Shown here in pieces: positions 5,753-36,152 of a stretch of DNA of 64,000 bases. Made by a program: the position numbers and the translations under genes. Position 1 is the stretch's first letter, and each line of letters begins with the position of its first letter. The notes under the pieces are model-generated. The model had not been told where the DNA came from. It was given only the letters and a program-made list of their open reading frames with translations, and made no database searches. This stretch comes from an uncultured Chlamydiae bacterium (GTDB lineage: Bacteria > Chlamydiota > Chlamydiia > Chlamydiales > Parachlamydiaceae). Location of the stretch: contig CAVWGN010000001.1 in NCBI GenBank assembly GCA_963754655.1, positions 1,888,001-1,952,000 of the forward strand, in the 5' to 3' direction.

Positions 5753-7276
5753 TTAACTTGCTATAAGATTGTAGCAGCCGGTTGAGTCAAACTTTTTTAA
5801 GCTTTTGGGAAGCTTGTCCAACGAGGCTATATTAGTGTATCCTACATTAAGCTTTTCTAGCTTTGAAAAAGACTCATCAAGCTTTTGAAAGGATTCTGCC
5901 GTAAGAGACTCGCATCCCTTTAAGTCAAGCTCTTTTAAGCTTTTGGGGAGCTTGTCTAGGGAGGCTATCGAAGTAGATGCTATATTAAGCTTTTCTAGCA
6001 TTGAAAAGGACTCATCAAGCTTTTGAAAGGATTCTGCTGTAAGAAGCCGGCATCTCTCTAAGTCAAGTTCTTTTAAATTTTTGGGGAGCTTGTCTAGGGA
6101 GGCTATTTCAGTCGATCCTACATTAAGCTTTTCTAGCTTTGAAAAGGACTCATCAAGCTTTTGAAAGGATTCTACTATTGTAAGAGCCATGCATTTGTAT
6201 AAGTTAAGCTCTTTTAAGTTTTTGGGGAGCTTGTCCAGGGAGCCTATGTGAGTGCCTCCTACATTAAGCTTTTCTAGCATTGAAAAGGACTCATCAAGCT
6301 TTTGAAAGGATTCTGCCTTAAGAGAATGGCATGCCGTTAAGTTAAGCTCTTTTAAGCTTTTGGGGAGCTTGTCTAGGGAAGCTATGTGAGTAAATGATAC
6401 ATTAAGCTTTTCTAACTTTGAAAAGGACTCATCAAGCTTTTGAAAGGCTTCTGCCGTAAGAGACCTGCATCCTTCTAAGTTAAGCTCTTTTAAGTTTTTG
6501 GGGAGCTTGTCTAGGGAGGCTATGTCAGTCGATCCTACATTAAGCTTTTCTAGCTTTGAAAAAGAAGATAAATCTAATTTCTCTATTGGAGTAGTGCCTA
6601 ATAGAGTCAGGGATCGAAGATTGGGAAATGCTTGTTGTAATCTTCTGAGTTTTTCATTATCTAAGCTTGTAAAATTGGAGAGATCGAGTGTAGTGATTTC
6701 TAGCTTTGAAAAAGAAGATAAATCTAATTTCTCTATTGGAGTAGTGCCCGATAGAGTCAGGGATCGAAGATTGGGACAGGCTTGTTGTAATCTTCTGAGT
6801 TTTTCATTATCTAAGCTTGTAAAATTGGAGAGATCGAGTGTAGTGATTTCTTCTCCAAATTGAAAGATAGCCTCAAATCTTTGCTTAGGAGAAAGGTTAC
6901 TATCTAACAAGTTAAAAGCTATTAATTTTCCCATAATTTGTGAATAGATGTCCATTGAACCCGCTGCCTCAAGCAACTCAGGATAGCGTATATAATGTGG
7001 AGAAGGATTGTCTAAATACTGCATGATTTGCTTCCAAAGATTTTGATCTTCGGGTTGAATCTTAAGTTGTTGAAGTAAGTTTTTAACTTCCTGTGCAGTT
7101 TCTTGTGAAGACAAAGAAAAGGCTGCTTGTCTTAAAAAATCTTGAATAATGAAATTAATTTTTTCTAAATTTTTCGTTTTATGTGAAGAAACCTTCTCAC
7201 TATTATAAGTGTTGATTAATTCCTTAAAAGAAACTTCGATAGACGAAGGTAAATGGTAAGAATGAGTCGGATCCAT
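5753..7276 (-). CDS. LRR protein, array copy 1 (intact)
   Basis: ~140-aa N-terminal domain, duplicated 50-aa block, 46-aa super-repeats, terminal cap KKFDSTGCYNLIAS. Confidence 0.9.
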   Translation of the reverse strand: MDPTHSYHLPSSIEVSFKELINTYNSEKVSSHKTKNLEKINFIIQDFLRQAAFSLSSQETAQEVKNLLQQLKIQPEDQNLWKQIMQYLDNPSPHYIRYPELLEAAGSMDIYSQIMGKLIAFNLLDSNLSPKQRFEAIFQFGEEITTLDLSNFTSLDNEKLRRLQQACPNLRSLTLSGTTPIEKLDLSSFSKLEITTLDLSNFTSLDNEKLRRLQQAFPNLRSLTLLGTTPIEKLDLSSFSKLEKLNVGSTDIASLDKLPKNLKELNLEGCRSLTAEAFQKLDESFSKLEKLNVSFTHIASLDKLPKSLKELNLTACHSLKAESFQKLDESFSMLEKLNVGGTHIGSLDKLPKNLKELNLYKCMALTIVESFQKLDESFSKLEKLNVGSTEIASLDKLPKNLKELDLERCRLLTAESFQKLDESFSMLEKLNIASTSIASLDKLPKSLKELDLKGCESLTAESFQKLDESFSKLEKLNVGYTNIASLDKLPKSLKKFDSTGCYNLIAS

Positions 7277-7597
7277 ATTTTCTTCTCTCTTTTGATTATG
7301 ATTAAAAATTTAATACAATAATTAATAAATAATTTATTATATTTACAAATGCTATTATACAAACTATTTTGATTTTAAGCGAGTACTAAAAACACTTTTT
7401 ATTTAATTGACATTTGCATTAGATTTATTTTCAACTTAAGATTGATTTAATATCAAATGAATTTAGTAAAAAAATTTGATTTGATATTAAATCTATGGAA
7501 ACAGTTTTCCTTCAAAAGGATTTAACTAAATCGATCATAAAAATGAATAAAAATAAAAAAATCCTGCCTTTTGTTGGCATGAAGATGACCGAATTGC

Positions 7598-7920
7598 CAG
7601 GGTGTTTTTACTAAACATATTTGACACTTGCAGCCCTTCAGGCTGCATGACACAACCCGCTCATAACCAGGGCGTTGCTGGTCTATTGCACTTACAGCCT
7701 TTCAGCTGATAGAGAACCTCAGCTTACAATATTAGACCGCAAGTCTCTATATTTTGGACCTTTTTTATAGACAGCACGTCTAAAAGTAAAATAGGAAATT
7801 TCCTGTATTAGCCGGAAGAGCTTTAAGTGCAATAGACTATGGCAACTCCCTGGGTATGAGCGGGTTGTGTCACGCAGCCTGAAGGGCTGCAAGTGTCAAA
7901 TATTTTAGTAAAAAACACTG
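7598..7920. mobile_element. Palindromic CAGGG-ended MITE, copy 1 (right end fused to the thioredoxin fragment)
   Basis: Starts CAGGGTGTTTTTACTAAACATATTTGACACTTGCAGCCC with an inverted copy at the right; internal AGCCTGAAGGGCT palindromes. Confidence 0.8.
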
Positions 7921-8425
7921 ATTGTTCAACTTTTTCATGAAAATTATTTTTGGTGAATTGAATAATTTCCAAAGCTTTTTTGGAACTTTCTCTTTAACTT
8001 TCATAGCCAATTTAAAGATGATCCTGAAATTTGACCTCAGACACTTTAACACTTTTTTGAACGATAGAATTTAATAAATCATCCATGACTTGCACATTCG
8101 CTTTGGTAATGGAAAAAGAGTGCTTCATATCCTTTATTTTTTACAATAATCAAAGCCTAAAGTAATATTATGTATTTGAATATTAATAAGATAATGATAA
8201 AATATTTATGTGATTAGAATTGCTATTTTTTGTAAAAAATTAGCACCCTAACCAAGGTAAAGCTTCGATTAAATTTTTAAATCATTTAAAATAATCTTGA
8301 ATCCGTTTTCAGACCCATCAGCCATAGGATTTGTTAAAAGATTGCTTAAGTTATTCCATTTATCTGCTCATCACACTTCTTCAATCCAACCTTCCCCCTC
8401 TTTTATAAACAACCATTAAAACCGG
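7921..8425 (-). pseudogene. Deleted thioredoxin and HD-hydrolase fragments
   Basis: Patches match 37495-37697 (trx) and 4762-5277 (HD), with internal deletions and a stop. Confidence 0.8.
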
Positions 8426-16316: not shown

Positions 16317-16610
16317 CTGGGCTATTTTCTTTGAAGCCTTTCAGGCTATTAAACAAATCGTGCTATTGGTTATTTAAAGATATCACTGATTCTTTAACCT
16401 CACTTACGTAAGGTGACTAAATCATTCATGAGCAAAAATATCCGCCGCTTCCTATTCTCGCTTCTCATATCTGGCATAAAACGTTCATGAGCAAAATATG
16501 TAGCCAGTGCTTGCAATTTATCCTATATTAAACACGATCTTTAATATTTTCAGAAACTCGTGCTCTAACTTTTCTCAGTAAGGCTTTTTTTAAAGAAATC
16601 AGCGCTTGAA

Positions 16611-18396
16611 TTAACTTGCTATAAGATTGTAGCAGCCGGTTGAGTCAAACTTTTTAAGCTTTTGGGAAGCTTGTCCAACGAGGCTATATTAGTGTATCCT
16701 ACATTAAGCTTTTCTAGCTTTGAAAAAGACTCATCAAGCTTTTGAAAGGATTCTGCCGTAAGAGACTCGCATCTCTCTAAGTCAAGCTCTTTAAGCTTTT
16801 GGGGGGCTTGTCTAAGGAGGCTATGTCAGTCCCTCTTACATTAAGCTTTTCTAGCATTGAAAAGGACTCATCAAGCTTTTGAAAGGATTCTGCTGTAAGA
16901 AGCCGGCATCTGTCTAAGTCAAGCTCTTTTAAGTTTTTGGGGAGCTTGTCTAGGGAGGCTATGTGAGTCGATCCTAAATCGAGATTTTCTAGCTTTGAAA
17001 AGGACTCATCAAGCTTTTGAAAGGATTCTGCTGTAAGATAATTGCAATACCTTAAGTCAAGCTCTTTTAAGTTTTTGGGGAGCTTGTCTAGAGAGGCTAT
17101 GCGAGTCGATCTTACATTAAGCTTTTCTAGCTTTGAAAAGGACTCATCAAGCTTTTGAAAGGCTTTTGCTGTAAGAGACTCGCCGCCGCATCCCATTAAG
17201 TCAAGCTCTTTTAAGTTTTTGGGGAGCTTGTCTAGGGAGGCTATGCGAGTCGAGCCTACATTAAGCTTTTCTAGCTTTGAAAAGGACTCATCAAGCTTTT
17301 GAAAGGACTTTGCTGTAAGAGACTTGCATACCCTTAAGTCAAGCTCTTTTAAGCTTTTGGGGAGCTTGTCTAGGGAGGCTATGCGAGTCGATCTTACATT
17401 AAGCTTTTCTAGCCTTGAAAAAGACTCATCAAGCTTTTGAAAGGATTCTGCTGTAAGAGACTTGCATTCGGCTAAGTCAAGCTCTTTTAAGCTTTTGGGG
17501 AGCTTGTCTAGGGAGGCTATGCGAGTCGAGCCTACATTAAGCTTTTCTAGCATTGGAAAAGACTCATCAAGCTTTTGAAAGGATTCTGCTGTAAGAGTGC
17601 ATCTCTTTAAGTCAAGCTCTTTTAAGTTGTTGGGGAGCTTGTCTAGGGAGGCTATGTAAGTCCTTCTTACATTAAGCTTTTCTAGCTTTGGAAAAGACTC
17701 ATCAAGCTTCTGAAAAGCTTCTGCTGTAAGATAATAGCAGCGCGCTAAGTTAAGCTCTTTTAAGCTTTTGGGGAGCTTGTCTAGGGATGCTATGTCAGTC
17801 GATTCTACACTAAGCTTTTCTAGGTTTGAAAAAGAGGATAAATCTAATTTCTCTATTGGAGTAGTGCCTGATAAAGTCAGAGATCGAAGATTGGGACAGG
17901 CTTGTTGTAATCTTCTGAGTTTTTCATTATCTAAGCTTGTAAAATCAGGAAGATCGAGTGTATTGATTTCTTCTCCAAATTGCAGGGCAGCCTCAAATGT
18001 TTGCTCAGGAGAAGGGTTACTATCTAACAACTCAAAAGCTATTACTTTTCCCATCATTTGTGAATAGATGTCCATTGAACCCGCTGCCTCAAGCAGCTCA
18101 GGGTAGCGAATATCATGTGGAGAAGGATTGTCTAAATACTGCATGATTTGCTTCCAAAGATTTTGATCTTCGGGTTGAATCTTAAGTTGTTGAAGTAAGT
18201 TTTTAACTTCCTGTGCAGTTTCTTGTGAAGGCAAAGAAAAGGCTGCTTGTCTTAAAAAATCTTGAATAATAAGATTAATTTTTTTTAAATTTTTCGTTTT
18301 ATCTGAAGAAACCTTTTCATTATTATAAGTGTTGATTAATTCCTTAAAAGAAACTTCGATAGACGAAGGTAAATGGTAAGAATGATTCGGATCCAT
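16611..18396 (-). pseudogene. LRR array copy 2; frameshifted near the 3' end (ORF 16777-18396)
   Basis: Single-T losses in T runs near 16790 and 16651 relative to other copies; normal terminal cap present out of frame. Confidence 0.85.
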
Positions 18397-19024: not shown

Positions 19025-19357
19025 TTATTGAATTTCTTGAAAGAAATCTTTGATCTTTGCTTCACATTCTTCTTTTGACATATATCCTACAAGGCGAGAA
19101 ACAACCTTTCCTTTATACATTAAGATAGTTGTCGGATAGGCTTTGACCTTTAAAAAGTTGACTAATAACGTCTCTTCATCAGCATCAATTTTAGCAAATT
19201 GGCATTCTTTCTTATATTTTTCATGTAATGTTTCAAAAATGGGAGCAAAATATCTACAAGGACGACACCAGTCTGCATAGACATCAATAATGAAGACCTT
19301 ATCTGATTGTTCAACTTCTTCATGAAAATTATTTTTGGTGAATTGAATAATTTCCAA
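19025..19357 (-). pseudogene. 5'-truncated thioredoxin duplicate (complete Trx domain, WCRPC)
   Basis: Near-identical to the C-terminal 110 aa of 37215-38063; only a TTG start. Confidence 0.75.
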
Positions 19358-19644
19358 AGCTTTTTGGAACTATCTCTTTCTCTTAAACTTTCATAGCCAA
19401 TTTGAAGATGATCCTGAAATTTGACCTCAGACACTTTAACGCTTTTTTGAACGATAGAATTTAATAAATCATCCATGACTTGCACATTCCGCTTTGGTAA
19501 TGGAAAAAGAGTGCTTCATATCCTTTATTTTTCACAATAATCAAAGCCTAAAGTAGTATTATTTATTTGAATATTAAAAAGATAATGATAAAATATTTAT
19601 GTGATTAGAATTGCTATTTTTTGTACAAAATTAACACCCTAAAC

Positions 19645-20239
19645 CCACGGTAAAGCTTCGATTAAATTTTTAAATCATTTAAAATAATCTTGAATCCGTT
19701 TTCAGACCTATCAGCCATAGGATTTGTTAAAAGATCGCTTAAGTTATCCCATTTATCTGCTAATTTAATTTGAGCAGCTCCTGCTGATTTATAAGGAGCT
19801 GTCATAATTTGGAGCTTTTTGCGCTCCTCTTTAGGAAGAGTTTTATCATCTGTGACTTCTTGTATAAAAGCAGTTATTCGCTCTCCAAATAAATCTAGAA
19901 GTTCTTGATAAGAAGTTTTCAGTATCTTCCAATGTATCATGGAGTAAACCTGCGATAATGATAGAGGGATCTCGAATGCTTCCTACCGTGACCAAGTGAT
20001 GCGCGACTGAAAGAGGATGGACGACATAAGGTGTTTGTGCCTCATCTTTGCGCAGTTGCTTGTGATGTTTATGAGCAGCAAATTCGACTGCTTTTAGAAT
20101 GAGATGTACATCTTCTTCAATCCAACCTTCCCCTCTTTCATAAACAGCCATTAAAACCTTTTGAAATTGAATAGACTTTTCTTGTACCTGAAAGAGAGGA
20201 GGGCCAAAATATTCTTTCACAACCTCATCTAACCTTTTA
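19645..20239 (-). pseudogene. Frameshifted, truncated HD-hydrolase duplicate
   Basis: Extra T at GAAGTTTTCAGT (~19918); 5' end removed by a deletion joining it to LRR copy 3. Confidence 0.85.
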
Positions 20240-20246: not shown

Positions 20247-21536
20247 TCAAACTTTTTTAAGCTTTTCTAGCTTTGAAAAGGACTCATTAAGCTTTTGAAA
20301 GGATTCTGCTGTAAGAAGCCGGCATCTCTCTAAATCAAGCTCTTTTAAGTTTTTGGGGAGCTTGTCTAGGGAGGCTATGTCAGTAAATCCTAAATTAAGC
20401 TTTTCTAGCTTTGAAAAGGACTCATCAAGCTTTTGAAAGGCTTCTGCTGTAAGATAATTGCAATAGCTTAAGTCAAGCTCTTTTAAGTTTTTGGGGAGCT
20501 TGTCTAGAGAGGCTATGTTAGTCGATTTTACATTAAGCTTTTCTAGCTTTGAAAAGGACTCATCAAGCTTTTGAAAGGCTTCTGCCGTAAGAGACGACCT
20601 GCATCCTTCTAAGTTAAGCTCTTTTAAGTTTTTGGGGAGCTTGTCCAGGGAGGTTATATTAGTGAATCCTACATTAAGCTTTTCTAGCTTTGAAAAGGAC
20701 TCATCAAGCTTCTGAAAAGCTTCTGCTGTAAGAGACTTGCATACCATTAAGTTGAGCTCTTTTAAGTTTTTGGGGAGCTTGTCTAGGGAGGTTATATTAG
20801 TGAATCCTACATTAAGCTTTTCTAGCTTTGGAAAGGACTCATCAAGCTTTTGAAAGGATTCTGCTGTAAGAGACTCGCATCCGGCTAAGTTAAGCTCTTT
20901 TAAGTTTTTGGGGAGCTTTTCTAGGGAGGTTATGTTAGTCGATTCTACATTAAGCTTTTCTAGGTTTGAAAAAGAGGATAAATCTAATTTCTCTATTGGA
21001 GTAGTGCCTGATAAAGTCAGAGATCGAAGATTGGGACAGGCTTGTTGTAATCTTCTGAGTTTTTCATTATCTAAGCTTGTAAAATCAGGAAGATCGAGTG
21101 TATTGATTTCTTCTCCAAATTGCAGGGCAGCCTCAAATGTTTGCTCAGGAGAAGGGTTACTATCTAACAACTCAAAAGCTATTACTTTTCCCATCATTTG
21201 CGAATAGATGTCCATTGAACCCGCTGCCTCAAGCAACTCAGGATAGCGAATATCATGTGGAGAAGGATTGTCTAAATACTGCATGATTTGATTCCAAAGA
21301 TTTTGATCTTCGGGTTGAATGTTAAGTTGTTGAAGTAAGTTTTTAACTTCCTGTGCATTTTCTTGTGAAGGCAAAGAAAAGGCTGCTTGTCTTAAAAAAT
21401 CTTGAATAATAAGATTAATTTTTTCTAAATTTTTCGTTTTATCTGAAGAAACCTTCTCACTATTATAAGTGTTGATTAATTCCTTAAAAGAAACTTCGAT
21501 AGACGAAGGTAAATGGTAAGAATGACTCGGATCCAT
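20247..21536 (-). CDS. LRR array copy 3, C-terminally truncated by deletion
   Basis: Same N-terminus and repeats; ends KLEKLKKV without the cap. Confidence 0.8.
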   Translation of the reverse strand: MDPSHSYHLPSSIEVSFKELINTYNSEKVSSDKTKNLEKINLIIQDFLRQAAFSLPSQENAQEVKNLLQQLNIQPEDQNLWNQIMQYLDNPSPHDIRYPELLEAAGSMDIYSQMMGKVIAFELLDSNPSPEQTFEAALQFGEEINTLDLPDFTSLDNEKLRRLQQACPNLRSLTLSGTTPIEKLDLSSFSNLEKLNVESTNITSLEKLPKNLKELNLAGCESLTAESFQKLDESFPKLEKLNVGFTNITSLDKLPKNLKELNLMVCKSLTAEAFQKLDESFSKLEKLNVGFTNITSLDKLPKNLKELNLEGCRSSLTAEAFQKLDESFSKLEKLNVKSTNIASLDKLPKNLKELDLSYCNYLTAEAFQKLDESFSKLEKLNLGFTDIASLDKLPKNLKELDLERCRLLTAESFQKLNESFSKLEKLKKV

Positions 21537-21860: not shown

Positions 21861-22151
21861 CAGGGTGTTTTTACTAAACATATTTGACACTTGCAGCCCT
21901 TTAGGCTGCATGACACAACCCGCTCATAACCGAGGCGTTGTTCTAGTCTATTGCACTTACAGCCTTTCAGGCTGATAAAGAACCTCAGCTATAATATTAG
22001 ACCATAAGTCTAAAAGTACAATAGGAAATTCCCTGCATTAGCCTGAAGGGCTTTAAGTGCAATAGACCAGGGCAACGCGCTGGGTATAAGTGGTTTGTGT
22101 CATGCAGCCTGAAGGGCTGCAAGTGTCAAATATTTTTAGTAAAAAACACTG
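21861..22151. mobile_element. Palindromic CAGGG-ended MITE, copy 3 (short-unit type)
   Basis: As copy 1; right end AAAAAACACTG fused to ATTGTTCAAC of trx. Confidence 0.8.
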
Positions 22152-22532
22152 ATTGTTCAACTTCTTCATGAAAATTATTTTTGGTGAATTGAATAATTTC
22201 CAAAGCTTTTTTGGAACTTTCTCTTTCTCTTAAACTTTTATAGCCAATTTGAAGATGATCCTGAAATTTGACCTCAGACACTTTAACGCTTTTTTGAACG
22301 ATAGAATTTAATAAATCATCCATGACTTGCACATTCCGCTTTGGTAATGGAAAAAGAGTGCTTCCATGGCTTCCTATTCTCGCTTCTCCTATTTGGCATA
22401 AAATGTTCATGAGCAAAATATGCAGTTAGTGCTTGCAATTGATCCCATTTAAACAGGACCTTTAATATTTTCAAGGCTAGTACTCTAACTTTTCTCTCAG
22501 TAAGGCTTTTTTTAAAGAAATCGGTGCTTGAA

Positions 22533-25171
22533 TTAACTTGCTATAAGATTGTAGCAGCCGGTTGAGTCAAACTTTTTTAAGCTTTTGGGAAGCTTGTCCA
22601 ACGAGGCTATATTAGTGAATCCTACATTAAGCTTTTCTAGCTTTGAAAAAGACTCATCAAGCTTTTGAAAGGATTCTTCTGTAAGAGCCATGCAGTTAAC
22701 TAAGTCAAGCTCTTTTAAGTTTTTGGGGAGCTTGTCTAGTGATGCTATGTGAGTCGATCCTACATTAAGCTTTTCTAGCTTTATGAAAAAGACTCATCAA
22801 GCTTTTGAATGGATTCTGTTTTAAGGGAATGCAACCGATAGAGAGGTCAAAATGGATTTAACTAAATTATATTGCAGTGTAGATGATTTTTGGAAGTCAT
22901 TTAAACAAGAATGGGATAAGCATTTGATTGATAATGGCAAAACAAAGCGAGGGCCTGAACCAGAATTATCAATTCCAGAGATGATGACAATTGTGATTTT
23001 ATTTCATCAATCGAATTATCGAACATTTAAATATTTTTATGACTACGTTTGTAAGTATTTACGAAGAGATTTTCCAAAATTAATTAGCTATAGCCGTTTT
23101 GTTTATTTAATGAAGAATTTATTTATTCCATTATTTGCCTACCTTTTAGAGAGAAGAGGAGAGATAACAGGAATTGCTTTTATTGATTCTACATCTCTAG
23201 ATGTTTGCCATAATAAACGCATTAAAAGAAATAAAGTTTTCAAAGGTTTAGCCAAACGTGGAAAAACGACCTCTGGATGGTTCTATGGATTTAAATTACA
23301 TTTGATTATTAATGAGAAAGGAGAAATTTTAGCCTTTCAGCTGACTCCTGGGAATATTGCGGATGTATCTGTTGCTGAAACGTTATCAAAAGGAATTTTT
23401 GGAAAGTTATTCGGTGACAAAGGATATATTTCGGCAGAACTTGCAAAAACAGCTTTTAAAACAAGGACTTGAGTTGTTTACAACTATAAGATCAAATATG
23501 AAGCAAAAGCTCATGAAGTTAACAGATAGAATTCTTCTTAGAAAACGAGCAATAATTGAAACAGTAAATGATCAATTAAAAAATATTTCTCAAATTGAAC
23601 ATACACGTCATAGAAGTGCTGGAAACTTTTTGATCAATCTATTAGCTGGTATTGTAGCTTATACTCATCAGCAAAAAAAGCCATCTATAAATTTAGCTGA
23701 GCAAGATCGTATGTTATTAATGGCTGCATAAAAAACCCAAAACTCAGGTTACATTAAGCTTTTCTAGCTTTGAAAAAGACTCATCAAGCTTTTGAATGGA
23801 TTCTGTTGTAAGAGACCTGCATCCGAGTAAGCTAAGCTCTTTTAAGTTTTTGGGGAGCTTGTCTAGTGATGCTATGTTAGTCAATCCTACATTAAGCTTT
23901 TCTAGCTTTGAAAAAGACTCATCAAGCTTTTGAAATGATTCTGCCGTAAGAGAATTGCAATACGATAAGTCAAGCTTTTTTAAGCTTTTGGGGAGCTTGT
24001 CTAAGGAAGTTATGTCTGTTGATCTTCTTACATTAAGCTTTTCTAGCTTTGAAAAAGACTCATCAAGCTTTTGAAAGGATTGTGCTGTAAGAAGCTGGCA
24101 TCTTTCTAAGTCAAGCTCTTTTAAGCTTTTGGGGAGCTTGTCTAGGGAGGTTATATTAGTGAATCCTACATTAAGCTTTTCTAGCTTTGAAAAGGACTCA
24201 TCAAGTTTTTGAAAGGATTCTGTTGTAAGAGAATAGCATTTCGCTAAGTTAAGTTCTTTTAAGTTTTTGGGGAGCTTGTCTAGGGAGGCTATGTCAGTCG
24301 ATCCTACATTAAGCTTTTCTAGCTTTGAAAAAGACTCATCAAGCTTTTGAAGGGATTCTGCCGTAAGAGACCTGCATAAGTTTAAGTTAAGCTCTTTTAA
24401 GTTTTTGGGGAGCTTGTCTAGGGAGGCTATGTCAGTCGATCCTACATAAAGCTTTTCTAGCTTTGAAAAAGACTCATCAAGCTTTTGAAAGGATTCTGCC
24501 GTAAGAGACCTGCATAAGTTTAAGTTAAGCTCTTTTAAGTTTTTGGGGAGCTTGTCTAGGGAGGCTATATTAGTTAATTCTACATTAAGCTTTTCTAGCT
24601 TTGAAAAAAAGGATAAATCTAATTTCTCTATTGGAGTAGTGCCTGATAAAGTCAGAGATCGAAGATTGGGACAGGCTTGTTGTAATCTTCTGAGTTTTTC
24701 ATTATCTAAGCTTGTAAAATCAGGAAGATTGAGTGTATTGATTTCTTCTCCAAATTGCAGGGCAGCCTCAAATGTTTGCTCAGGAGAAGGGTTACTATCT
24801 AACAACTCAAAAGCTATTACTTTTCCCATCATTTGCGAATAGATGTCCATTGAACCCGCTGCCTCAAGCAACTCAGGATAGCGAATATCATGTGGAGAAG
24901 GATTGTCTAAATACTGCATGATTTGCTTCCAAAGATTTTGATCTTCGGGTTGAATCTTAAGTTGTTGAAGTAAGTTTTTAACTTCCTGTGCAGTTTCTTG
25001 TGAAGGCAAAGAAAAGGCTGCTTGTCTTAAAAAATCTTGAATAATAAGATTAATTTTTTTTAAATTTTTCGTTTTATCTGAAGAAACCTTTTCATTATTA
25101 TAAGTGTTGATTAATTCCTTAAAAGAAACTTCGATAGACGAAGGTAAATGGTAAGAATGATTCGGATCCAT
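22533..25171 (-). pseudogene. LRR array copy 4, interrupted by IS982 (ORF 23744-25171; 3' remnant 22533-22820)
   Basis: LRR repeats and terminal cap resume on the other side of the IS. Confidence 0.85.
22821..23749 (+). mobile_element. IS982-family element, frameshifted transposase (22852-23731), left end missing
   Basis: [44 protein letters not shown]; right end AACTCAGGT with no matching left IR; extra A near 23447. Confidence 0.88.
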
Positions 25172-27406: not shown

Positions 27407-29200
27407 TTAACTTGCTATAAGATTGTAGCAGCCGGTTGAGTCAAACTTTTTTAAGCTTTTGGGAAGCTTGTCCAACGAGGCTATATTAGTGTATCCTACA
27501 TCAAGCTTTTCTAGCTTTGAAAAAGACTCATCAAGCTTTTGAAAGGATTCTGCCGTAAGAGACTCGCATCTCTGTAAGTCAAGCTCTTTTAAGCTTTTGG
27601 GGAGCTTGTCTAAGGAGGCTATATCACTGAATCCTACATTAAGCTTTTCTAGCATTGAAAAGGACTCATCAAGCTTTTGAAAGGCTTCTGCTGTAAGAAG
27701 CCAGCATCTCTCTAAGTCAAGCTCTTTTAAGCTTTTGGGGAGCTTGTCTAGGGAGGCTATTCCAGTGAATCCTACATCAAGCTTTTCTAGCTTTGAAAAG
27801 GACTCATCAAGCTTTTGAAAGGACTCTAAGGAATCTATTGTAAGATCCGTGCATTTATATAAGTTAAGCTCTTTTAAGTTTTTGGGGAGCTTGTCTAGGG
27901 AGCCTATGTGAGTCGATCCTAAATCGAGCTTTTCTAGCTTTGAAAAGGACTCATCAAGCTTTTGAAAGGATTCTGCTGTAAGATAATTGCAATACCTTAA
28001 GTCAAGCTCTTTTAAGTTTTTAGGGAGCTTGTCTAGGGAGATTATATTAGTGTATCCTACATTAAGCTTTTCTAGCTTTGAAAAGGACTCATCAAGCTTT
28101 TGAAAGGATTCTGCCGTAAGAGACTCGCATCTCTCTAAGTCAAGCTCTTTTAAGTTGTTGGGGAGCTTGTCTAGGGAGGCTATGTGAGTAAATCCTAAAC
28201 TAAGCTTTTCTAGCTTTGGAAAAGACTCATCAAGCTTCTGAAAAGCTTCTGCTGTAAGATATGTGCATCCGGCTAAGTTAAGTTCTTTTAAGTTGTTGGG
28301 GAGCTTGTCTAGGGAGGTTATGTTAGTCGAGCCTACATTAAGCTTTTCTAGCATTGAAAAGGACTCATCAAGCTTTTGAAAGGATTCTGCCTTAAGAGAA
28401 TGGCATGCCGTTAAGTCAAGCTCTTTTAAGTTGTTGGGGAGCTTGTCTAGGGAGGCTATGTAAGTAAATCCTAAATTAAGCTTTTCTAGCTTTGGAAAAG
28501 ACTCATCAAGCTTTTGAAAGGATTCTGCTGTAAGATAATAGCAGCGCGCTAAGTTAAGCTCTTTTAAGCTTTTGGGGAGCTTGTCTAGGGATGCTATGTC
28601 AGTCGATTCTACACTAAGCTTTTCTAGGTTTGAAAAAGAGGATAAATCTAATTTCTCTATTGGAGTAGTGCCTGATAAAGTCAGAGATCGAAGATTGGGA
28701 CAGGCTTGTTGTAATCTTCTGAGTTTTTCATTATCTAAGCTTGTAAAATCAGGAAGATCGAGTGTAGTGATTTCTTCTCCAAATTGCAGGGCAGCCTCAA
28801 ATGTTTGCTCAGGAGAAGGGTTACTATCTAACAACTCAAAAGCTATTACTTTTCCCATAATTTGTGAATAGATGTCCATTGAACCCGCTGCCTCAAGCAA
28901 CTCAGGATAGCGAATATCATGTGGAGAAGGATTGTCTAAATACTGCATGATTTGATTCCAAAGATTTTGATCTTCGGGTTGAATCTTAAGTTGTTGAAGT
29001 AAGTTTTTAACTTCCTGTGCAGTTTCTTGTGAAGGCAAAGAAAAGGCTGCTTGTCTTAAAAAATCTTGAATAATAAGATTAATTTTTTCTAACTTTTTCG
29101 TTTTATCTGAAAAAACCTTCTCATTATTATAAGTGTTGATTAATTCCTTAAAAGAAACTTCGATAGACGAAGGTAAATGGTAAGAATGATTCGGGTCCAT
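27407..29200 (-). CDS. LRR array copy 5 (intact, 597 aa)
   Basis: Eight 26-aa Cys-type modules; terminal cap present. Confidence 0.9.
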   Translation of the reverse strand: MDPNHSYHLPSSIEVSFKELINTYNNEKVFSDKTKKLEKINLIIQDFLRQAAFSLPSQETAQEVKNLLQQLKIQPEDQNLWNQIMQYLDNPSPHDIRYPELLEAAGSMDIYSQIMGKVIAFELLDSNPSPEQTFEAALQFGEEITTLDLPDFTSLDNEKLRRLQQACPNLRSLTLSGTTPIEKLDLSSFSNLEKLSVESTDIASLDKLPKSLKELNLARCYYLTAESFQKLDESFPKLEKLNLGFTYIASLDKLPNNLKELDLTACHSLKAESFQKLDESFSMLEKLNVGSTNITSLDKLPNNLKELNLAGCTYLTAEAFQKLDESFPKLEKLSLGFTHIASLDKLPNNLKELDLERCESLTAESFQKLDESFSKLEKLNVGYTNIISLDKLPKNLKELDLRYCNYLTAESFQKLDESFSKLEKLDLGSTHIGSLDKLPKNLKELNLYKCTDLTIDSLESFQKLDESFSKLEKLDVGFTGIASLDKLPKSLKELDLERCWLLTAEAFQKLDESFSMLEKLNVGFSDIASLDKLPKSLKELDLQRCESLTAESFQKLDESFSKLEKLDVGYTNIASLDKLPKSLKKFDSTGCYNLIAS

Positions 29201-29816: not shown

Positions 29817-30140
29817 ATTGTTCAACTTCTTCATGAAAATTATTTTTGGTGAATTGAATAATTTCCAAAGCTTTTTTGGAACTATCTCTTTCTCTTAAAC
29901 TTTCATAGCCAATTTGAAGATGATCCTGAAATTTGACCTCAGACACTTTAACGCTTTTTTGAACGATAGAATTTAATAAATCATCCATGACTTGCACATT
30001 CCGCTTTGGTAATGGAAAAAGAGTGCTTCCATGGCTTCCTATTCTCGCTTCTCCTATCTGGCATAAAATGTTCATGAGCAAAATATGCAGTTAGTGCAAT
30101 TGATCCCATTTAAATAGGACCTTTAATATTTTCAAGGCTA

Positions 30141-30979
30141 GGGAGCGTACCTAAAAGATTTAAAATAATAACTATTATGATTTATAATTTTCTCTGATAA
30201 AACAAGGGGGAAATTTGAATGAGTAGGATAGTATTAACTAATGAAAGATGGATAAAAATAAAACCTTTATTGCCAAAAGAACGAGGATATTGGGGCAGAC
30301 CAAGTCGGCCTCATCGTAAGATTTTAGAAGGCATTATTTGGATTTTAAGAACAGGAGCCGCTTGGAGGGATCTACCACCCAAGTATGGTCCTTGGAGCAC
30401 ATGTTATAATCGCTTTAATCATGGACAAAGGCTGGAATCTGGCAAACGATTTGGCAAGCTTTAAAAGATGAAATTGACGAAGAAAATTACTCTGTAGACA
30501 GCTCAATTGTTGAAGCGCATCAAGATGCTTGTAGGATAAAAAAAAAGCCGAAGAAGTCATGGGAAAATCAAGGGCCGGAACAACCACAAAAATTCATGCA
30601 GTAACAGATGGATTAGGTCGTTGTATTGATTTTATCTTGACAGAAGGTCAAGTACACGAGAGCACTCAAATGAAGCTTTTACTCAGTGGAAAAAGTCCAC
30701 AAAATGTTATAGCTGATAAAGCTTACGACTCAAATGAAATCAGAAATTTTATAGAAAAGATGGGAAGTCAAGCAGTCATACCCAGCAAAGTATCAAGAGC
30801 TGAACTAATTGAACATGATAAACATATCTACAGAGAGCGTTGCTTGGTAGAAAATTTTTTTCAGTTTATAAAACGATTTAGGCGTATTAAAATAAGATAC
30901 GAAATGAAAGCTCAAAATTATGCAGGAATGTTGACGATCGCTTGTATTATACAATGGTTAATCTTTTAGGTACGCTCCC
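30141..30979 (+). mobile_element. IS5-family element, copy 2 (orfA frameshifted)
   Basis: Same TIRs, inserted in CTAG; 1-bp deletion at TTTAATC^ATGG (~30420). Confidence 0.92.
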
Positions 30980-31033
30980 TAGTACTCTAACTTTTCTCTC
31001 AGTAAGGCTTTTTTAAAGAAATCGGTGCTTGAA

Positions 31034-32740
31034 TTAACTTGCTATAAGATTGTAGCAGCCGGTTGGGTCAAACTTTTTTAAGCTTTTGGGAAGCTTGTCC
31101 AACGAGGCTATATTAGTGTATCCTACATTAAGCTTTTCTAGCTTTGAAAAAGACTCATCAAGCTTTTGAAAGGATTCTGCCGTAAGAGACTCGCATCTCT
31201 CTAAGTCAAGCTCTTTTAAGCTTTTGGGGAGCTTGTCTAAGGAGGTTATATTAGTGAATCCTACATTAAGCTTTTCTAGCTTTGAAAAGGACTCATCAAG
31301 CTTTTGAAAGGATTCTGCTGTAAGAAGCCGGCATCTGTCTAAGTCAAGCTCTTTTAAGTTTTTGGGGAGCTTGTCTAGGGAGGCTAGGCGAGTCGATCCT
31401 AAATTGAGCTTTTTTAAGTTTTTGGGGAGCTTGTCTAGGGAGGCTATGTGAGTCGATCCTAAATCGAGCTTTTCTAGCTTTGAAAAGGACTCATCAAGCT
31501 TTTGAAAGGATTCTGCTGTAAGATAATTGCAATACCTTAAGTCAAGCTCTTTTAAGTTTTTGGGGAGCTTGTCTAGGGAGATTATATTAGTGAATCCTAC
31601 ATTAAGCTTTTCTAGCTTTGAAAAGGACTCATCAAGTTTTTGAAAGGATTCTGCCGTAAGAGACTTGCATCTCTCTAAGTCAAGCTCTTTTAAGCTTTTG
31701 GGGAGCTTGTCTAGGGAGGCTATATGAGTCGATGCTAAATCGAGCTTTTCTAGCTTTGGAAAGGACTCATCAAGCTTTTGAAAGAATTCTGCTGTAAGAG
31801 ACTTGCATCCGGCTAAGTCAAGCTCTTTTAAGTTGTTGGGGAGCTTGTCTAGGGAGGTTATATTAGTGAATCCTACATTAAGCTTTTCTAGCTTTGAAAA
31901 GGACTCATCAAGCTTTTGAAAGAATTCTGCTGTAAGAGACTTGCATCCGGCTAAGTCAAGCTCTTTTAAGTTGTTGGGGAGCTTGTCTAGGGAGGTTATG
32001 TGAGTAAATCCTAAATTAAGCTTTTCTAGCTTTGGAAAAGACTCATCAAGCTTCTGAAAAGCTTCTGCTGTAAGATATGTGCATCCTGCTAAGTTAAGCT
32101 CTTTTAAGTTTTTGGGGAGCTTGTCTAGGGATGCTATGTCAGTCGATCCTACATCAAGCTTTTCTAGCTTTGCAAAAGAGGATAAATCTAATTTCTCTAT
32201 TGGAGTAGTGCCTGATAAAGTCAGAGATCGAAGATTGGGACAGGCTTGTTGTAATCTTCTAAGTTTTTCATTATCTAAGCTTGTAAAATTGGAGAGATTG
32301 AGTGTAGTGATTTCTTCTCCAAATTGCAAGGTAGCCTCAAATCTTTGCTCAGGAGAAGGGTTACTATCTAACAACTCAAAAGCTATTACTTTTCCCATAA
32401 TTTGTGAATAGATGTCCATTGAACCCCCTGCCTCAAGCAGCTCAGGGTAGCGAATATCATGTGGAGAAGGATTGTCTAAATACTGCATGATTTGCTTCCA
32501 AAGATTTTGATCTTCGGGTTGAATCTTAAGTTGTTGAAGTAAGTTTTTAACTTCCTGTGCAGTTTCTTGTGAAGGCAAAGAAAAGGCTGCTTGTCTTAAA
32601 AAATCTTGAATAATAATATTAATTTTTTCTAAATTTTTCGTTTTATCTGAAGAGACCTTCTCACTATTATAAGTGTTGATTAATTCCTTAAAAGAAACTT
32701 CGATAAACGAAGGTAAATGGTAAAAATGATTCGGATCCAT
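31034..32740 (-). CDS. LRR array copy 6 (intact, 568 aa)
   Basis: Seven 26-aa modules, one doubled 20-aa module, terminal cap present. Confidence 0.9.
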   Translation of the reverse strand: MDPNHFYHLPSFIEVSFKELINTYNSEKVSSDKTKNLEKINIIIQDFLRQAAFSLPSQETAQEVKNLLQQLKIQPEDQNLWKQIMQYLDNPSPHDIRYPELLEAGGSMDIYSQIMGKVIAFELLDSNPSPEQRFEATLQFGEEITTLNLSNFTSLDNEKLRRLQQACPNLRSLTLSGTTPIEKLDLSSFAKLEKLDVGSTDIASLDKLPKNLKELNLAGCTYLTAEAFQKLDESFPKLEKLNLGFTHITSLDKLPNNLKELDLAGCKSLTAEFFQKLDESFSKLEKLNVGFTNITSLDKLPNNLKELDLAGCKSLTAEFFQKLDESFPKLEKLDLASTHIASLDKLPKSLKELDLERCKSLTAESFQKLDESFSKLEKLNVGFTNIISLDKLPKNLKELDLRYCNYLTAESFQKLDESFSKLEKLDLGSTHIASLDKLPKNLKKLNLGSTRLASLDKLPKNLKELDLDRCRLLTAESFQKLDESFSKLEKLNVGFTNITSLDKLPKSLKELDLERCESLTAESFQKLDESFSKLEKLNVGYTNIASLDKLPKSLKKFDPTGCYNLIAS

Positions 32741-33356: not shown

Positions 33357-33369
33357 ATTGAATTGCTTT

Positions 33370-33702
33370 TTATTGAATTTCTTGAAAGAAATCTTTGATC
33401 TTTGCTTCACATTCTTCTTTTGACATATATCCTACAAGGCGGGAAACAACTTTTCCTTTATACATTAAGATAGTTGTCGGATAGGCTTTGACCTTTAAAA
33501 AGTTGACTAATAACGTCTCTTCATCAGCATCAATTTTAGCAAATTGGCATTCTTTCTTATATTTTTCATGTAATGTTTCAAAAATGGGAGCAAAATATCT
33601 ACAAGGACGACACCAGTCTGCATAGACATCAATAATGAAGACCTTATCTGATTGTTCAACTTCTTCATGAAAATTATTTTTGGTGAATTGAATAATTTCC
33701 AA
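33370..33702 (-). pseudogene. 5'-truncated thioredoxin duplicate
   Basis: WCRPC domain as above. Confidence 0.75.
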
Positions 33703-33987
33703 AGCTTTTTGGAACTATCTCTTTCTCTTAAACTTTCATAGCCAATTTGAAGATGACCCTGAAATTTGACCTCAGACACTTTAACGCTTTTTTGAACGAT
33801 AGAATTTAATAAATCATCCATGACTTGCACATTCCGCTTTGGTAATGGAAAAAGAGTGCTTCATATCCTTTATTTTTCACAATAATCAAAGCCTAAAGTA
33901 GTATTATTTATTTGAATATTAAAAAGATAATGATAAAATATTTATGTGATTAGAATTGCTATTTTTTGTACAAAATTAACACCCTAA

Positions 33988-34317
33988 ACCCACGGTAAAG
34001 CTTCGATTAAATTTTTAAATCATTTAAAATAATCTTGAATCCGTTTTCAGACCTATCAGCATAGGATTTGTTAAAAGATTGCTTAAGTTATCCCATTTAT
34101 CTGCTAATTTAATTTGAGCAGCTTCTGCTGATTTATAAGGAGCTGTCATAATTTGGAGCTTTTTGCGCTCCTCTTTAGGAAGAGTTTTATCATCTGTCAC
34201 TTCTTGTACAAAAGCAGTTATTCGCTCTCCGAATAAATCTAGAAGTTCTTGATAAGAAGTTTTCAGTATCTTCCAATGTATCATGGAGTAAACCTGCGAT
34301 AATGATAGAGGGATCTC
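33988..34317 (-). pseudogene. HD-hydrolase 3' fragment
   Basis: Carries the shared extra T; joined to LRR copy 7 at GGATCTC/TCTAGC. Confidence 0.85.
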
Positions 34318-35582
34318 TCTAGCTTTGAAAAGGACTCATCAAGCTTTTGAAAGGATTCTGCTGTAAGAAGCCGGCATCTCTCTAAGTCAAGCTCTTTTAA
34401 GTTTTTGGGGAGCTTGTCTAGGGAGGCTATGTCAGTAAATCCTAAATTAAGCTTTTCTAGCTTTGAAAAGGACTCATCAAGCTTTTGAAAGGATTCTGCT
34501 GTAAGATAATTGCAATAGCTTAAGTCAAGCTCTTTTAAGTTTTTGGGGAGCTTGTCTAGAGAGGCTATGTTAGTCGATTTTACATTAAGCTTTTCTAGCT
34601 TTGAAAAGGACTCATCAAGCTTTTGAAAGGCTTCTGCCGTAAGAGACCTGCATCCTTCTAAGTTAAGCTCTTTTAAGTTTTTGGGGAGCTTGTCTAGGGA
34701 GGCTATGTCAGTCGATCCTACATTAAGCTTTTCTAGCTTTGAAAAGGACTCATCAAGCTTTTGAAAGGACTCTGCTGTAAGAAGCCGGCATCTCTCTAAG
34801 TCAAGCTCTTTTAAGCTTTTGGGGAGCTTGTCTAGGGCTATGTCAGTCCCTCTTACATTAAGCTTTTCTAGCTTTGAAAAAGACTCATCAAGCTTTTGAA
34901 AGGATTCTGCTGTAAGAGAATGGCATGCCGTTAAGTTAAGTTCTTTTAAGTTTTTGGGGAGCTTTTCTAGGGAGGTTATGTCAGTCGATTCTACACTAAG
35001 CTTTTCTAGGTTTGAAAAAGATGATAAATCTAATTTCTCTATTGGAGTAGTGCCTGATAAAGTCAGAGATCGAAGATTGGGACAGGCTTGTTGTAATCTT
35101 CTGAGTTTTTCATTATCTAAGCTTGTAAAATCAGGAAGATCGAGTGTATTGATTTCTTCTCCAAATTGCAGGGCAGCCTCAAATGTTTGCTCAGGAGAAG
35201 GGTTACTATCTAACAACTCAAAAGCTATTACTTTTCCCATCATTTGCGAATAGATGTCCATTGAACCCGCTGCCTCAAGCAACTCAGGATAGCGAATATC
35301 ATGTGGAGAAGGATTGTCTAAATACTGCATGATTTGATTCCAAAGATTTTGATCTTCGGGTTGAATCTTAAGTTGTTGAAGTAAGTTTTTAACTTCCTGT
35401 GCAGTTTCTTGTGAAGGCAAAGAAAAGGCTGCTTGTCTTAAAAAATCTTGAATAATAAGATTAATTTTTTCTAAATTTTTCGTTTTATCTGAAGAAACCT
35501 TCTCACTATTATAAGTGTTGATTAATTCCTTAAAAGAAACTTCGATAGACGAAGGTAAATGGTAAGAATGAGTCGGATCCAT
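34281..35582 (-). CDS. LRR array copy 7, C-terminally truncated by deletion into the HD fragment
   Basis: Ends KLERSLYHYRRFTP, which is out-of-frame HD sequence. Confidence 0.8.
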   Translation of the reverse strand: MDPTHSYHLPSSIEVSFKELINTYNSEKVSSDKTKNLEKINLIIQDFLRQAAFSLPSQETAQEVKNLLQQLKIQPEDQNLWNQIMQYLDNPSPHDIRYPELLEAAGSMDIYSQMMGKVIAFELLDSNPSPEQTFEAALQFGEEINTLDLPDFTSLDNEKLRRLQQACPNLRSLTLSGTTPIEKLDLSSFSNLEKLSVESTDITSLEKLPKNLKELNLTACHSLTAESFQKLDESFSKLEKLNVRGTDIALDKLPKSLKELDLERCRLLTAESFQKLDESFSKLEKLNVGSTDIASLDKLPKNLKELNLEGCRSLTAEAFQKLDESFSKLEKLNVKSTNIASLDKLPKNLKELDLSYCNYLTAESFQKLDESFSKLEKLNLGFTDIASLDKLPKNLKELDLERCRLLTAESFQKLDESFSKLERSLYHYRRFTP

Positions 35583-36150: not shown

Positions 36151-36152
36151 TA

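What the first reader, a model, noticed from the sequence alone, without database searches (positions are those of the whole stretch)
5753..35582. Combinatorial LRR repertoire: identical variable modules shuffled among seven tandem paralogs
Seen: each paralog is a different string of 138-bp modules, and exact variants recur at different ranks. TACHSL is 2nd in copies 1 and 5 but 1st in copy 7. AGCTYL is 3rd in copy 5 and 1st in copy 6. EGCRS is 1st in copy 1 and 3rd in copies 3 and 7. RYCNYL occurs in copies 2, 5 and 6; DRCRLL in 2 and 6; ARCYYL in 2 and 5. ERCRLL occurs in copies 1 and 3 and twice in copy 7. VRGTDIA is late in copy 2 and early in copy 7. Module number varies (5-8 in copies that retain the cap). 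Established: lamprey VLRs and plant NLR clusters diversify LRR binding surfaces by cassette exchange. Inference: a bacterial diversifying system in which the invariant framework supplies homology for out-of-register recombination or gene conversion, and broken copies may act as donors.
Basis: partly seen in the sequence, partly recalled or inferred. Interest (0 to 1): 0.9.

Follow-up and report, generated by a model that had tools for sequence, protein, structure and literature searches.

The report
Recombining tandem LRR gene family
A chlamydia-like symbiont carries eight neighbouring copies of an orphan leucine-rich-repeat gene whose 46-residue modules share an almost invariant DNA scaffold, vary at the predicted binding-surface positions, and have been reassorted by what looks like ordinary homologous recombination rather than a dedicated diversity machine.

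Summary
"Identical modules shuffled" overstates it. Only one whole 138-bp module is identical at two ranks (c1 module 1 = c7 module 3). What recurs are short hypervariable cores: 18 of 44 A cores and 23 of 44 B cores have an exact twin. Arrays are largely collinear: 6 of 50 pairs of reciprocal-best matches cross.

The locus is a young tandem amplification of a ~3.5-kb unit: seven copies, an older eighth at 39656-40795, and an IS-severed remnant. The family is confined to this genome; one distant single-copy homolog exists in the same genus. Four of the eight copies are broken.

Recombination is well supported:
- PHI p=0.003 in the unique 5' flank and p=0.001-0.005 among modules.
- The 5' and 3' flanks give discordant relationships.
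- Half-module histories are discordant in 36 of 46 modules; 0 of 500 control partitions reach that.

Variation sits at LRR positions 5, 7, 8, 10 and 11/12 on a scaffold that is invariant even at synonymous sites.

Nothing shows a programmed system: no expression-site/silent-cassette layout, no reverse transcriptase, no population data. I read it as a new member of a known kind, repeat-effector families evolving by unequal exchange, conversion and diversifying selection.

The parts
5753..7276 (-). c1: intact paralog, 507 aa. N-domain, a 150-bp internal duplication of the N-cap (6547-6851), 5 modules and a cap.
4705..5409 (-). Full-length HD-domain (RelA/SpoT-like hydrolase) gene downstream of c1. 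It is the parent of the HD fragments carried in the amplified units.
16418..18396 (-). c2: the ORF 16777-18396 (539 aa) ends at a 1-bp deletion in module 8. An out-of-frame ERCESL module, cap and downstream spacer follow. This is the most divergent 3' flank.
20247..21536 (-). c3: 5 modules. The cap is partly deleted and fused to the HD fragment at 19643-20239.
23744..25171 (-). c4: 6 modules, cut by a 924-bp IS (22826-23749). Its B cores are mostly unique. Its 5' flank is nearly identical to that of c2.
22360..22825 (-). 3' remnant ('f'): a partial module, one VNCMAL module carrying a 2-nt insertion, the cap and the spacer. It is probably the severed end of c4.
27407..29200 (-). c5: intact, 597 aa, 8 modules and a cap. 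Its 3' 438 bp are identical to c1, and its first module is nearly identical to that of c2.
31034..32740 (-). c6: intact, 568 aa, 7 modules and a cap, with a 60-bp half-module duplication at 31339-31473.
34281..35582 (-). c7: 5 modules. A deletion fuses it out of frame into the HD fragment at 33988-34317.
39656..40795 (-). c8: older paralog, 79% identical in the N-domain.
37215..38063 (-). Thioredoxin-domain gene. Its 3' part is the parent of the fragments at 18802-19525, 25577-26299 and 33147-33870 that lie upstream of the copies.
19303..20239 (-). Amplicon junction J1: an HD fragment joined to the thioredoxin-gene fragment. The same junction recurs at 7918-8368, 26078-27063 and 33648-34317.
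22149..22640 (-). Amplicon junction J2: the spacer downstream of the cap joined directly to the thioredoxin-gene fragment, with no HD fragment. It recurs at 29814-30141. J1 and J2 alternate along the cluster.
30138..30981 (+). IS5-family element in the spacer below c6. Further copies lie at 12407-13258 and 36148-36998, all 99% identical.

Best explanation
This is a lineage-specific, probably secreted, LRR host-interaction protein family caught soon after tandem amplification.

Proposed history:
1. An ancestral gene (orphan helical N-domain, then an array of 46-residue double-LRR modules) had its array rebuilt or homogenised in this lineage.
2. The gene was duplicated once, giving c8.
3. A ~3.5-kb unit was then amplified seven-fold by unequal crossing-over. 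The unit runs: thioredoxin-gene 3' fragment, upstream region, LRR gene, spacer, HD-gene fragment.

Proposed mechanism: the 36-57 bp invariant framework stretches between the two hypervariable cores of each module serve as substrates for RecA-type homologous recombination and slippage. This produces (a) module gain and loss within a gene, (b) hybrid genes and conversion tracts between paralogs, and (c) new pairings of A and B cores. Point substitutions at LRR positions 5, 7, 8, 10 and 11/12 are retained by diversifying selection for new binding specificities. IS insertions, frameshifts and deletions kill copies (birth and death).

Shown here: the amplicon anatomy, the recombination signals, where the variation lies, and the decay of four copies.
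Inferred: selection as the cause of the hypervariability, RecA dependence, secretion, and a host target.
For: Anatomy.
- All 8 copies lie in this window and nowhere else in the 3.16-Mb genome. The modules also occur nowhere else: 0 of 66 blastn HSPs fall outside the locus.
- The same HD::thioredoxin-fragment junction recurs four times, a second junction type recurs twice, and the two types alternate.
- Unique flanks differ by only 0.6-5.9%.

Recombination.
- 5' flank: PHI p=0.003, with 171 of 406 site pairs incompatible.
- c2 and c4 have 0 differences over 825 bp, then 13-15 per 100 bp from the first module on, and no module pair within 12 differences.
- c1 and c5 differ by 5.9% at the 5' side but by 1 of 281 at the 3' side, with a 438-bp exact match.
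- An AU test on the 5' data rejects the split that the 3' flank supports (p=0.016).
- Among modules, PHI p=0.001-0.005 for 3-8 neighbours and 0.05 for 12, with 514 of 946 site pairs incompatible.
- The nearest A-half and nearest B-half come from different modules in 36 of 46 cases. 500 interleaved control partitions gave a mean of 22.6 and a maximum of 31.
- The quartet c6_7, c6_3, c6_2, c5_4 gives 4 sites for one split and 4 sites for the incompatible split within 138 bp.
- RecA is present.

Homogenised scaffold.
- 35 modules average 88% nt identity here. The six modules of the same-genus homolog average 59%.
- Many framework codons are a single codon in 37 of 37 modules.

Variation at binding positions.
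- Eleven codons carry up to 12 residues each. They lie on or just after the predicted beta-strands.
- pN at these codons is 0.386, against pS of 0.109 in the framework.

Effector-like character.
- LRR_4 scores above its cut-off.
- The nearest solved sequences are the LRRs of YopM, SKP2, SspH1 and IpaH9.8.
- The T3SS gate protein SctV is present above its cut-off.

Precedent: repeat effectors change repeat number and order by intra- and inter-genic recombination (passages of PMC4617103).
Against: - With exact core sequences alone, no strict four-gamete violation exists: 0 pairs of A types share two B types. The clean quartet needs two A cores that differ by 2 nt to be treated as one type.
- PHI can be inflated by strong rate heterogeneity and homoplasy at hypervariable sites.
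- The 11 hypervariable codons were chosen for being variable, so their pN/pS of 1.46 is circular. Synonymous diversity is also higher there (0.264 against 0.109), which could mean older variation or locally raised mutation rather than selection.
- Arrays are largely collinear (6 of 50 pairs cross), so much of the 'different rank' pattern needs only module loss and gain.
- The AU group was named after I had seen the 5' distances.
- Secretion, expression and a host target are untested, and the N-domain could not be modelled (pLDDT below 50 over residues 49-126).
- The assembly could not be checked against reads.
Confidence: 0.7

Rival explanations
1. A contingency or programmed diversification locus. 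Frequent gene conversion among the paralogs, with the broken copies serving as an archive of donors, would generate new LRR binding surfaces within a population on ecological time scales. That would be functionally analogous to VLR assembly or to cassette-based antigenic variation.
For: - The framework is invariant even at synonymous sites and flanks each hypervariable core.
- Exchange occurs at half-module grain.
- An identical 147-bp tract is shared by broken c7 and intact c1 at different ranks, although their flanks differ by 4.7%.
- There are very recent conversion tracts: 825 bp between c2 and c4, and 438 bp between c1 and c5.
- Four degraded copies are retained next to intact ones.
Against: - There is no single expression site. 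All seven copies keep the start codon, N-domain and upstream region.
- The broken copies are broken in four unrelated ways, which is typical of decay.
- 13 of 46 B patches have no relative within 2 nt in the locus, so they were not assembled from extant donors.
- Arrays are largely collinear.
- No dedicated recombinase or deaminase was seen. I did not search for a deaminase.
- No rate or population data exist.
Confidence: 0.13
2. No exchange between modules at all. The pattern would arise from whole-unit duplication, followed by in-register module loss and gain within each gene, and by bursts of positive selection confined to one core at a time. The flank discordance would come from a few conversion events outside the arrays.
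For: - 44 of 50 pairs of reciprocal-best module matches are collinear.
- No strict four-gamete violation exists with exact core types.
- N-proximal and cap-proximal modules are orthologous between copies.
Against: - The contiguous-halves test (36 of 46, with 0 of 500 controls reaching it) and PHI among modules both argue for distinct histories of the A and B halves.
- In c2 modules 3-6 the A cores repeat with a two-module period, while two of the four B cores are unique.
- Between c2 and c4 the divergence jumps from 0 to about 14% exactly at the array boundary.
Confidence: 0.1
3. Assembly artefact. The mosaics would be chimeras produced by mis-joining reads across near-identical 138-bp repeats and 3.5-kb units.
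For: - The locus is highly repetitive.
- No read set of this genome could be laid on it.
Against: - The genome is in 2 contigs despite many IS copies at 99% identity, which implies long reads.
- The reading frames of c1, c5 and c6 stay open through 5-8 modules.
- Mosaicism occurs at a grain of tens of bases and also in the non-repetitive flanks. Assembly chimeras would not produce that.
Confidence: 0.04
4. Targeted hypermutation of the cores by a diversity-generating retroelement or a similar system.
For: - Variation is confined to short patches on an invariant scaffold.
- Synonymous diversity is also raised in those codons.
Against: - No reverse transcriptase (RVT_1) was found in the genome, which is 96.7% complete, while the control genomes did ring.
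- No template repeat exists outside the locus.
- The substitutions are not confined to adenines (alignment).
Confidence: 0.01

Closest known systems
Expanded LRR gene families of Parachlamydiaceae (NEX1, PEX1; Domman et al. 2014, PMC4209131; passages read)
   Same: Chlamydial symbiont. C-terminal LRR arrays of variable number. Tandem gene arrays, lineage-specific, with no homologs outside the group. A birth-and-death pattern with pseudogenes. A presumed host-interaction role.
   Different: - Those families carry F-box, BTB or RING/U-box N-domains. This one has an orphan N-domain with no Pfam or NCBIfam hit.
- Those families are old and diverged. The authors found no convincing recombination and found purifying selection.
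- This one is young (flanks 94-99% identical) and shows clear recombination and hypervariable surface positions. That is the early stage which those authors said is rarely observable.
TAL effector families of Xanthomonas (as summarised in PMC4617103, passages read)
   Same: Several paralogs per genome. Arrays of near-identical repeats whose DNA scaffold is conserved. Specificity residues at fixed hypervariable positions. Repeat number and order changed by intra- and inter-genic recombination. This is the closest analogue for how the locus works.
   Different: The fold (alpha-solenoid of 34-residue repeats) and the ligand (DNA) are different. There is no sequence relationship. TALE recombination has been shown experimentally, whereas here it is inferred from one genome.
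lgr genes of Protochlamydia amoebophila (Eugster et al. 2007, PMC2216083; abstract and outline only)
   Same: A recently duplicated chlamydial LRR paralog family with 5-18 concatenated repeats. Its evolution is explained by adjacent concatenation of LRRs.
   Different: Those are 28-residue RI-like LRRs in very large G+C-rich genes dispersed on the chromosome. No hypervariable-core versus invariant-scaffold pattern is stated in the abstract.
Lamprey VLR assembly and plant NLR clusters
   Same: LRR concave-surface positions are the variable ones. Plant NLR clusters also combine tandem duplication, unequal crossing-over, gene conversion and diversifying selection.
   Different: VLR assembly is somatic. 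It uses an incomplete germline gene, flanking promoterless cassettes and cytidine deaminases. None of that layout is present here.
LRR domains of the type III effectors YopM, SspH1, IpaH9.8, XopAE and GogB (hits)
   Same: They are the best sequence matches of the array (YopM E=3e-7; XopAE E=8e-19, far below the family cut-off). They are short bacterial-type LRRs in proteins without a signal peptide.
   Different: The matches cover LRRs only. There is no NEL or other effector domain, and every score is far under the family cut-offs, so this is not a member of those families.

Membership tests
Leucine-rich repeat proteins (Pfam LRR_4 / LRR_6) | Repeats matching the LRR profile above the curated cut-off | tested here: met
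   c1 scores 92.4 bits and c5 109.5 bits on LRR_4, against a cut-off of 27. The AF2 model shows the alternating strand/helix solenoid from residue ~145 with pLDDT 64-88.
NEX1/PEX-type chlamydial ubiquitination-related LRR families | An N-terminal F-box, BTB or RING/U-box domain | tested here: not met
   No such domain appears in c1, c5 or c8 with Pfam at E<=0.01 or with NCBIfam. The N-domain has no relatives among 1.84 billion representatives other than its own paralog and one weak motif hit.
NEX1/PEX-type chlamydial ubiquitination-related LRR families | A C-terminal LRR array of variable number, in tandem gene arrays | tested here: met
Cassette-based antigenic variation (one expression site plus silent donor cassettes) | Donor copies lack a promoter, start codon and 5' region, and a single complete expression locus exists | tested here: not met
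   All seven amplified copies keep the ATG, the N-domain and 400 bp of upstream sequence, with 0-26 differences per ~400 nt. Three or four copies are complete.
VLR-type assembly | An incomplete recipient gene flanked by partial LRR cassettes, plus an AID/APOBEC-like deaminase | tested here: not met
   The layout is absent. A deaminase was not searched for.
Diversity-generating retroelement | A reverse transcriptase and a template repeat | tested here: not met
   There are 0 RVT_1 matches in the genome, while the controls ring. No module copy lies outside the locus.
Type III secreted effector | A type III secretion system in the genome | tested here: met
   SctV/HrcV scores 914.9 bits against a cut-off of 692. 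The secretin model scored only below its cut-off.
Type III secreted effector | Translocation of the protein into the host cell | not testable with these tools
   This needs a secretion or translocation assay.
Repeat-effector families evolving by repeat recombination (TALE-like dynamics) | A near-identical repeat scaffold, hypervariable fixed positions, variable repeat number among paralogs, and a recombination signal | tested here: met
   This is a similarity of process, not homology.

The most novel reading that the evidence does not exclude
The cluster is an active contingency locus. RecA-mediated conversion among the eight copies, broken ones included, would continually re-pair a small alphabet of A and B cores on the invariant scaffold. 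A clonal symbiont population would then carry many LRR binding surfaces at once, giving a bacterial, germline-only counterpart of combinatorial LRR receptor diversification, used to track variable amoebal host targets.
Probability: 0.13. Interest if true: 0.75.

Novelty: new member of a known kind. Interest (0 to 1): 0.4.

Why it matters
Large LRR families are a hallmark of amoeba-associated chlamydiae. In the published families the early phase of duplication and diversification is no longer visible, and recombination and positive selection were not detected (PMC4209131, passages read).

This locus is a compact, young example. The amplicon junctions, the conversion tracts, module turnover, core re-pairing and gene death can all be read in one 36-kb stretch. 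It has a single-copy, non-homogenised homolog in a sister species to serve as an outgroup.

That makes it a good natural system for measuring how fast, and by which events, a bacterial repeat protein acquires new binding surfaces. It is not, on present evidence, a new kind of mechanism.

Tried and rejected
- Promoter and terminator scan of the c5 unit: 7 promoter-like sites against 7.2 expected from shuffles, so uninformative.
- Sequencing runs: no RNA holder is listed. One soil-metagenome run holds 19% of the sampled words. 14 short contigs were laid, 2 of them at 99% or more, all at depth below 11. None spans a module boundary usefully. The one 'joint' is the laid stretch's end running into the repeated spacer. 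Nothing can be said about module order, strain variation or expression.
- ESM Atlas search with the N-domain: no usable hit.
- AF2 on c1 without an alignment: the N-domain came out below pLDDT 50, so I ran no fold search.
- First genome-contig scan, with the N-domain: 138 pattern matches, none confirmed.
- The search for homologous proteins: returned only this genome's own proteins.
- Second genome-contig scan, with a neighbouring transketolase, meant to learn the genus from record titles: it returned only distant non-chlamydial MAGs at 67% identity or less, so no name was obtained.
- Weak hit P0005 (E=4e-6): a repeated helical motif in an unrelated 1475-aa PD40/TPR protein, not a homolog of the domain.
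- T3SS secretin model: hits only below the cut-off, so I replaced it with the SctV search.
- Strict four-gamete test on exact core types: 0 violations.
- Literature searches for a description of this locus or of bacterial LRR cassette exchange found none. The library is limited to open-access papers.

Full report
WHAT IS THERE

The window is part of a 3.16-Mb, two-contig genome.

Between 4.7 and 41 kb, all on the minus strand, lie eight paralogs of one gene:
- c1: 5753-7276
- c2: 16777-18396
- c3: 20247-21536
- c4: 23744-25171
- c5: 27407-29200
- c6: 31034-32740
- c7: 34281-35582

A 3' remnant lies at 22360-22825. A tblastn of the N-domain against the whole genome finds these eight and nothing else. 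The 138-bp modules likewise occur nowhere else: 0 of 66 blastn HSPs fall outside the locus.

Each protein has three parts. First comes an orphan, helical N-domain of ~145 residues. Next is an LRR-like N-cap. Last is a string of 46-residue modules, each made of two 23-residue LRRs: LEKLNVGSTDIASLDKLPKNLKE followed by LNLEGCRSLTAEAFQKLDESFSK. In c1, c5 and c6 the string ends in a 36-residue cap.

Pfam sees only LRR families. The nearest solved sequences are the LRRs of YopM, SKP2, SspH1 and IpaH9.8.

THE OBSERVATION

The recurrences are identical at the DNA level.

Three qualifications matter.
- The recurring unit is not the module. It is the hypervariable core of a half-module. Among the 44 modules of c1-c7, 18 A cores (24 nt) and 23 B cores (21 nt) have an exact twin, yet 41 of the 44 A/B combinations are distinct. 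Among 1081 module pairs only one is identical (c1 module 1 = c7 module 3). The other close pairs are collinear orthologues or neighbours in the same gene.
- The arrays are largely collinear. Of 50 pairs of reciprocal-best module matches (<=12 differences) between genes, 6 cross. Most 'different ranks' therefore reflect module gain and loss between conserved N-proximal and cap-proximal modules.
- c2 has not lost its cap. A 1-bp deletion in module 8 shifts the frame, and a further module and the cap follow.

HOW THE CLUSTER AROSE

Each of c1-c7 sits in a ~3.5-kb unit. In the direction of transcription the unit runs: a 3' fragment of the thioredoxin-domain gene (parent 37215-38063), ~470 bp of upstream sequence, the LRR gene, a spacer, and a fragment of the HD-domain gene (parent 4705-5409).

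The same HD::thioredoxin-fragment junction recurs four times. A second junction, spacer::thioredoxin-fragment, recurs twice. The two alternate along the cluster. I read this as one founding duplication followed by amplification through unequal crossing-over, partly as a two-gene unit; that reading is inference.

The unique flanks differ by 0.6-5.9%. IS elements have since landed in and between the units.

Four copies are broken, each in a different way:
- c2 by a frameshift.
- c3 by a deletion that fuses the cap to the HD fragment.
- c4 by a 924-bp IS.
- c7 by a deletion running out of frame into the HD fragment.

EVIDENCE FOR EXCHANGE

In the non-repetitive 5' region (N-domain plus 400 bp upstream; c1-c7) the site patterns are visibly mosaic. 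PHI gives p=0.003, with 171 of 406 site pairs incompatible.

Different segments give different relationships:

| Segment | Comparison | Differences |
|---|---|---|
| Upstream 400 bp | c2 vs c4 | 0 of 400 |
| Upstream 400 bp | c5 vs the others | 23-26 of ~396 |
| N-domain | c5 vs c2, c3, c4, c7 | 7-9 of 429 |

c2 and c4 have no difference over 825 bp. They then have 13-15 differences per 100 bp from the first module onward, and no module pair within 12 differences.

Conversely, c1 and c5 differ by 5.9% on the 5' side but by 1 of 281 on the 3' side, and they share a 438-bp exact match. The 3' remnant of c4 groups with c1, c5 and c6, and lies 21 of 276 differences from c2. An AU test on the 5' data rejects that grouping (p=0.016). 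The group was named after I had seen the distances.

Within the arrays:
- PHI over 35 ungapped modules gives p=0.001-0.005 for 3-8 neighbours and p=0.05 for 12.
- The nearest relative of a module's A half and of its B half are different modules in 36 of 46 cases. 500 random interleaved partitions of the same variable columns gave a mean of 22.6 and a maximum of 31.
- In c2 modules 3-6 the A cores repeat with a two-module period while the B cores are unrelated.
- c6 carries a 60-bp duplication of half a module.

Against this, a strict four-gamete test with exact core types finds no violation. The cleanest incompatible quartet (c6_7, c6_3, c6_2, c5_4) needs two A cores that differ by 2 nt to be treated as one type.

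WHERE THE VARIATION LIES

Of the 48 modules, 37 are exactly 138 nt long and were used here. The 11 dropped are those with indels and the IS remnant.

In these 37, eleven codons (5, 6, 7, 8, 10, 12, 25, 27, 28, 30, 31) carry 3-12 residues each. Many framework codons are one and the same codon in all 37.

| Codon set | pN | pS |
|---|---|---|
| 11 variable codons | 0.386 | 0.264 |
| Framework | 0.033 | 0.109 |
| N-domain, between paralogs | 0.027 | 0.043 |

(All values.)

The variable codons are positions 5, 7, 8, 10 and 11/12 of each LRR. They lie on and just after the predicted beta-strands of the AF2 model. By recalled textbook knowledge of LRR structure, these are the ligand-facing positions of the concave surface.

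The choice of codons is circular, so this suggests diversifying selection but does not prove it.

A same-genus genome holds one homolog with the same N-terminus and six 46-residue modules (L002, 492 aa). Its modules are only 59% identical to one another at the DNA level, against 88% here. The scaffold in this genome has therefore been homogenised or rebuilt recently. That explains its invariance without invoking selection for recombination homology.

WHAT IT IS NOT

- There is no reverse transcriptase in the genome, so it is not a DGR.
- There is no expression-site/silent-cassette layout.
- There are no donor modules elsewhere in the genome.
- 13 of 46 B patches have no relative within 2 nt in the locus, so arrays such as that of c4 were not assembled from extant copies.
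- RecA and a type III secretion gate protein are present. This makes ordinary homologous recombination available and an effector role plausible. Secretion, expression and target are untested.

COMPARISON AND VERDICT

The nearest relatives in kind are the expanded LRR families of Parachlamydiaceae. Those carry F-box, BTB or RING N-domains. They are old, and according to the passages I read they show neither convincing recombination nor positive selection; the authors note that the window for seeing early diversification is small (PMC4209131).

The nearest analogue in process is the TAL effector family, where intra- and inter-genic repeat recombination is documented (passages of PMC4617103). For the lgr genes I read only the abstract and outline (PMC2216083).

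My searches found no paper describing this locus.

I therefore rate it a new member of a known kind. It is a young, recombining, partly decaying LRR effector-like family, and it is useful as a natural system. The bolder reading, an active contingency locus, is not excluded. It needs long-read population data that I could not obtain.

Noticed in passing
window 7602-7918, and the equivalent place upstream of each copy (e.g. 18720-19011, 21861-22151, 25495-25786, 29525-29816, 33065-33356, 37046-37200): A ~317-bp palindrome (77-nt arms, 90% complementary) lies 330-640 bp upstream of every LRR copy. It may be related to the palindromic mobile repeats noted earlier in this genome. I did not test that relation, nor any role in expression.
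   Followed up: partly
window 8560-14467: An F-box-like LRR_6 gene (10572-11873, with a 72-bp repeat array) sits between two IS4/Tn5-type transposase copies. These are 8614-10059, and 12120-14467, the latter split by an IS5 element at 12407-13258. The arrangement looks like a composite transposon, and it is inserted between c1 and c2.
   Followed up: partly
window 6547-6851: c1 alone carries a 150-bp tandem duplication (97% identical) of the LRR-like N-cap that precedes the modules.
   Followed up: yes
window 14961-16280: A 439-aa ORF on the plus strand between the IS block and c2 has no Pfam or NCBIfam match.
   Followed up: partly
window 60633-61408: Another coding tandem array (123-bp period, 6.4 copies, 79% identical) lies in a TPR protein (ORF 60615-61760).
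   Followed up: partly
window 44305-46395: For this transketolase, the best matches among species-representative genomes are non-chlamydial MAGs (Rhodanobacter, Acidobacteria, Gemmatimonadota) at 52-67% identity. This may be an acquired gene. The own genome and its near kin are left out by that tool.
   Followed up: no
P0005 (1475 aa): Residues 44-96 of the N-domain weakly resemble a helical motif of roughly 70 residues (spacing estimated by eye from the BLASTP segments). The motif is repeated at least five times in an unrelated PD40/TPR protein. It may be a small shared helical module, or it may be chance.
   Followed up: partly
L002 1486-2964 (G002, same genus): A single-copy homolog of the family with six non-homogenised 46-residue modules. 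It is a natural outgroup for dating the homogenisation and amplification.
   Followed up: partly
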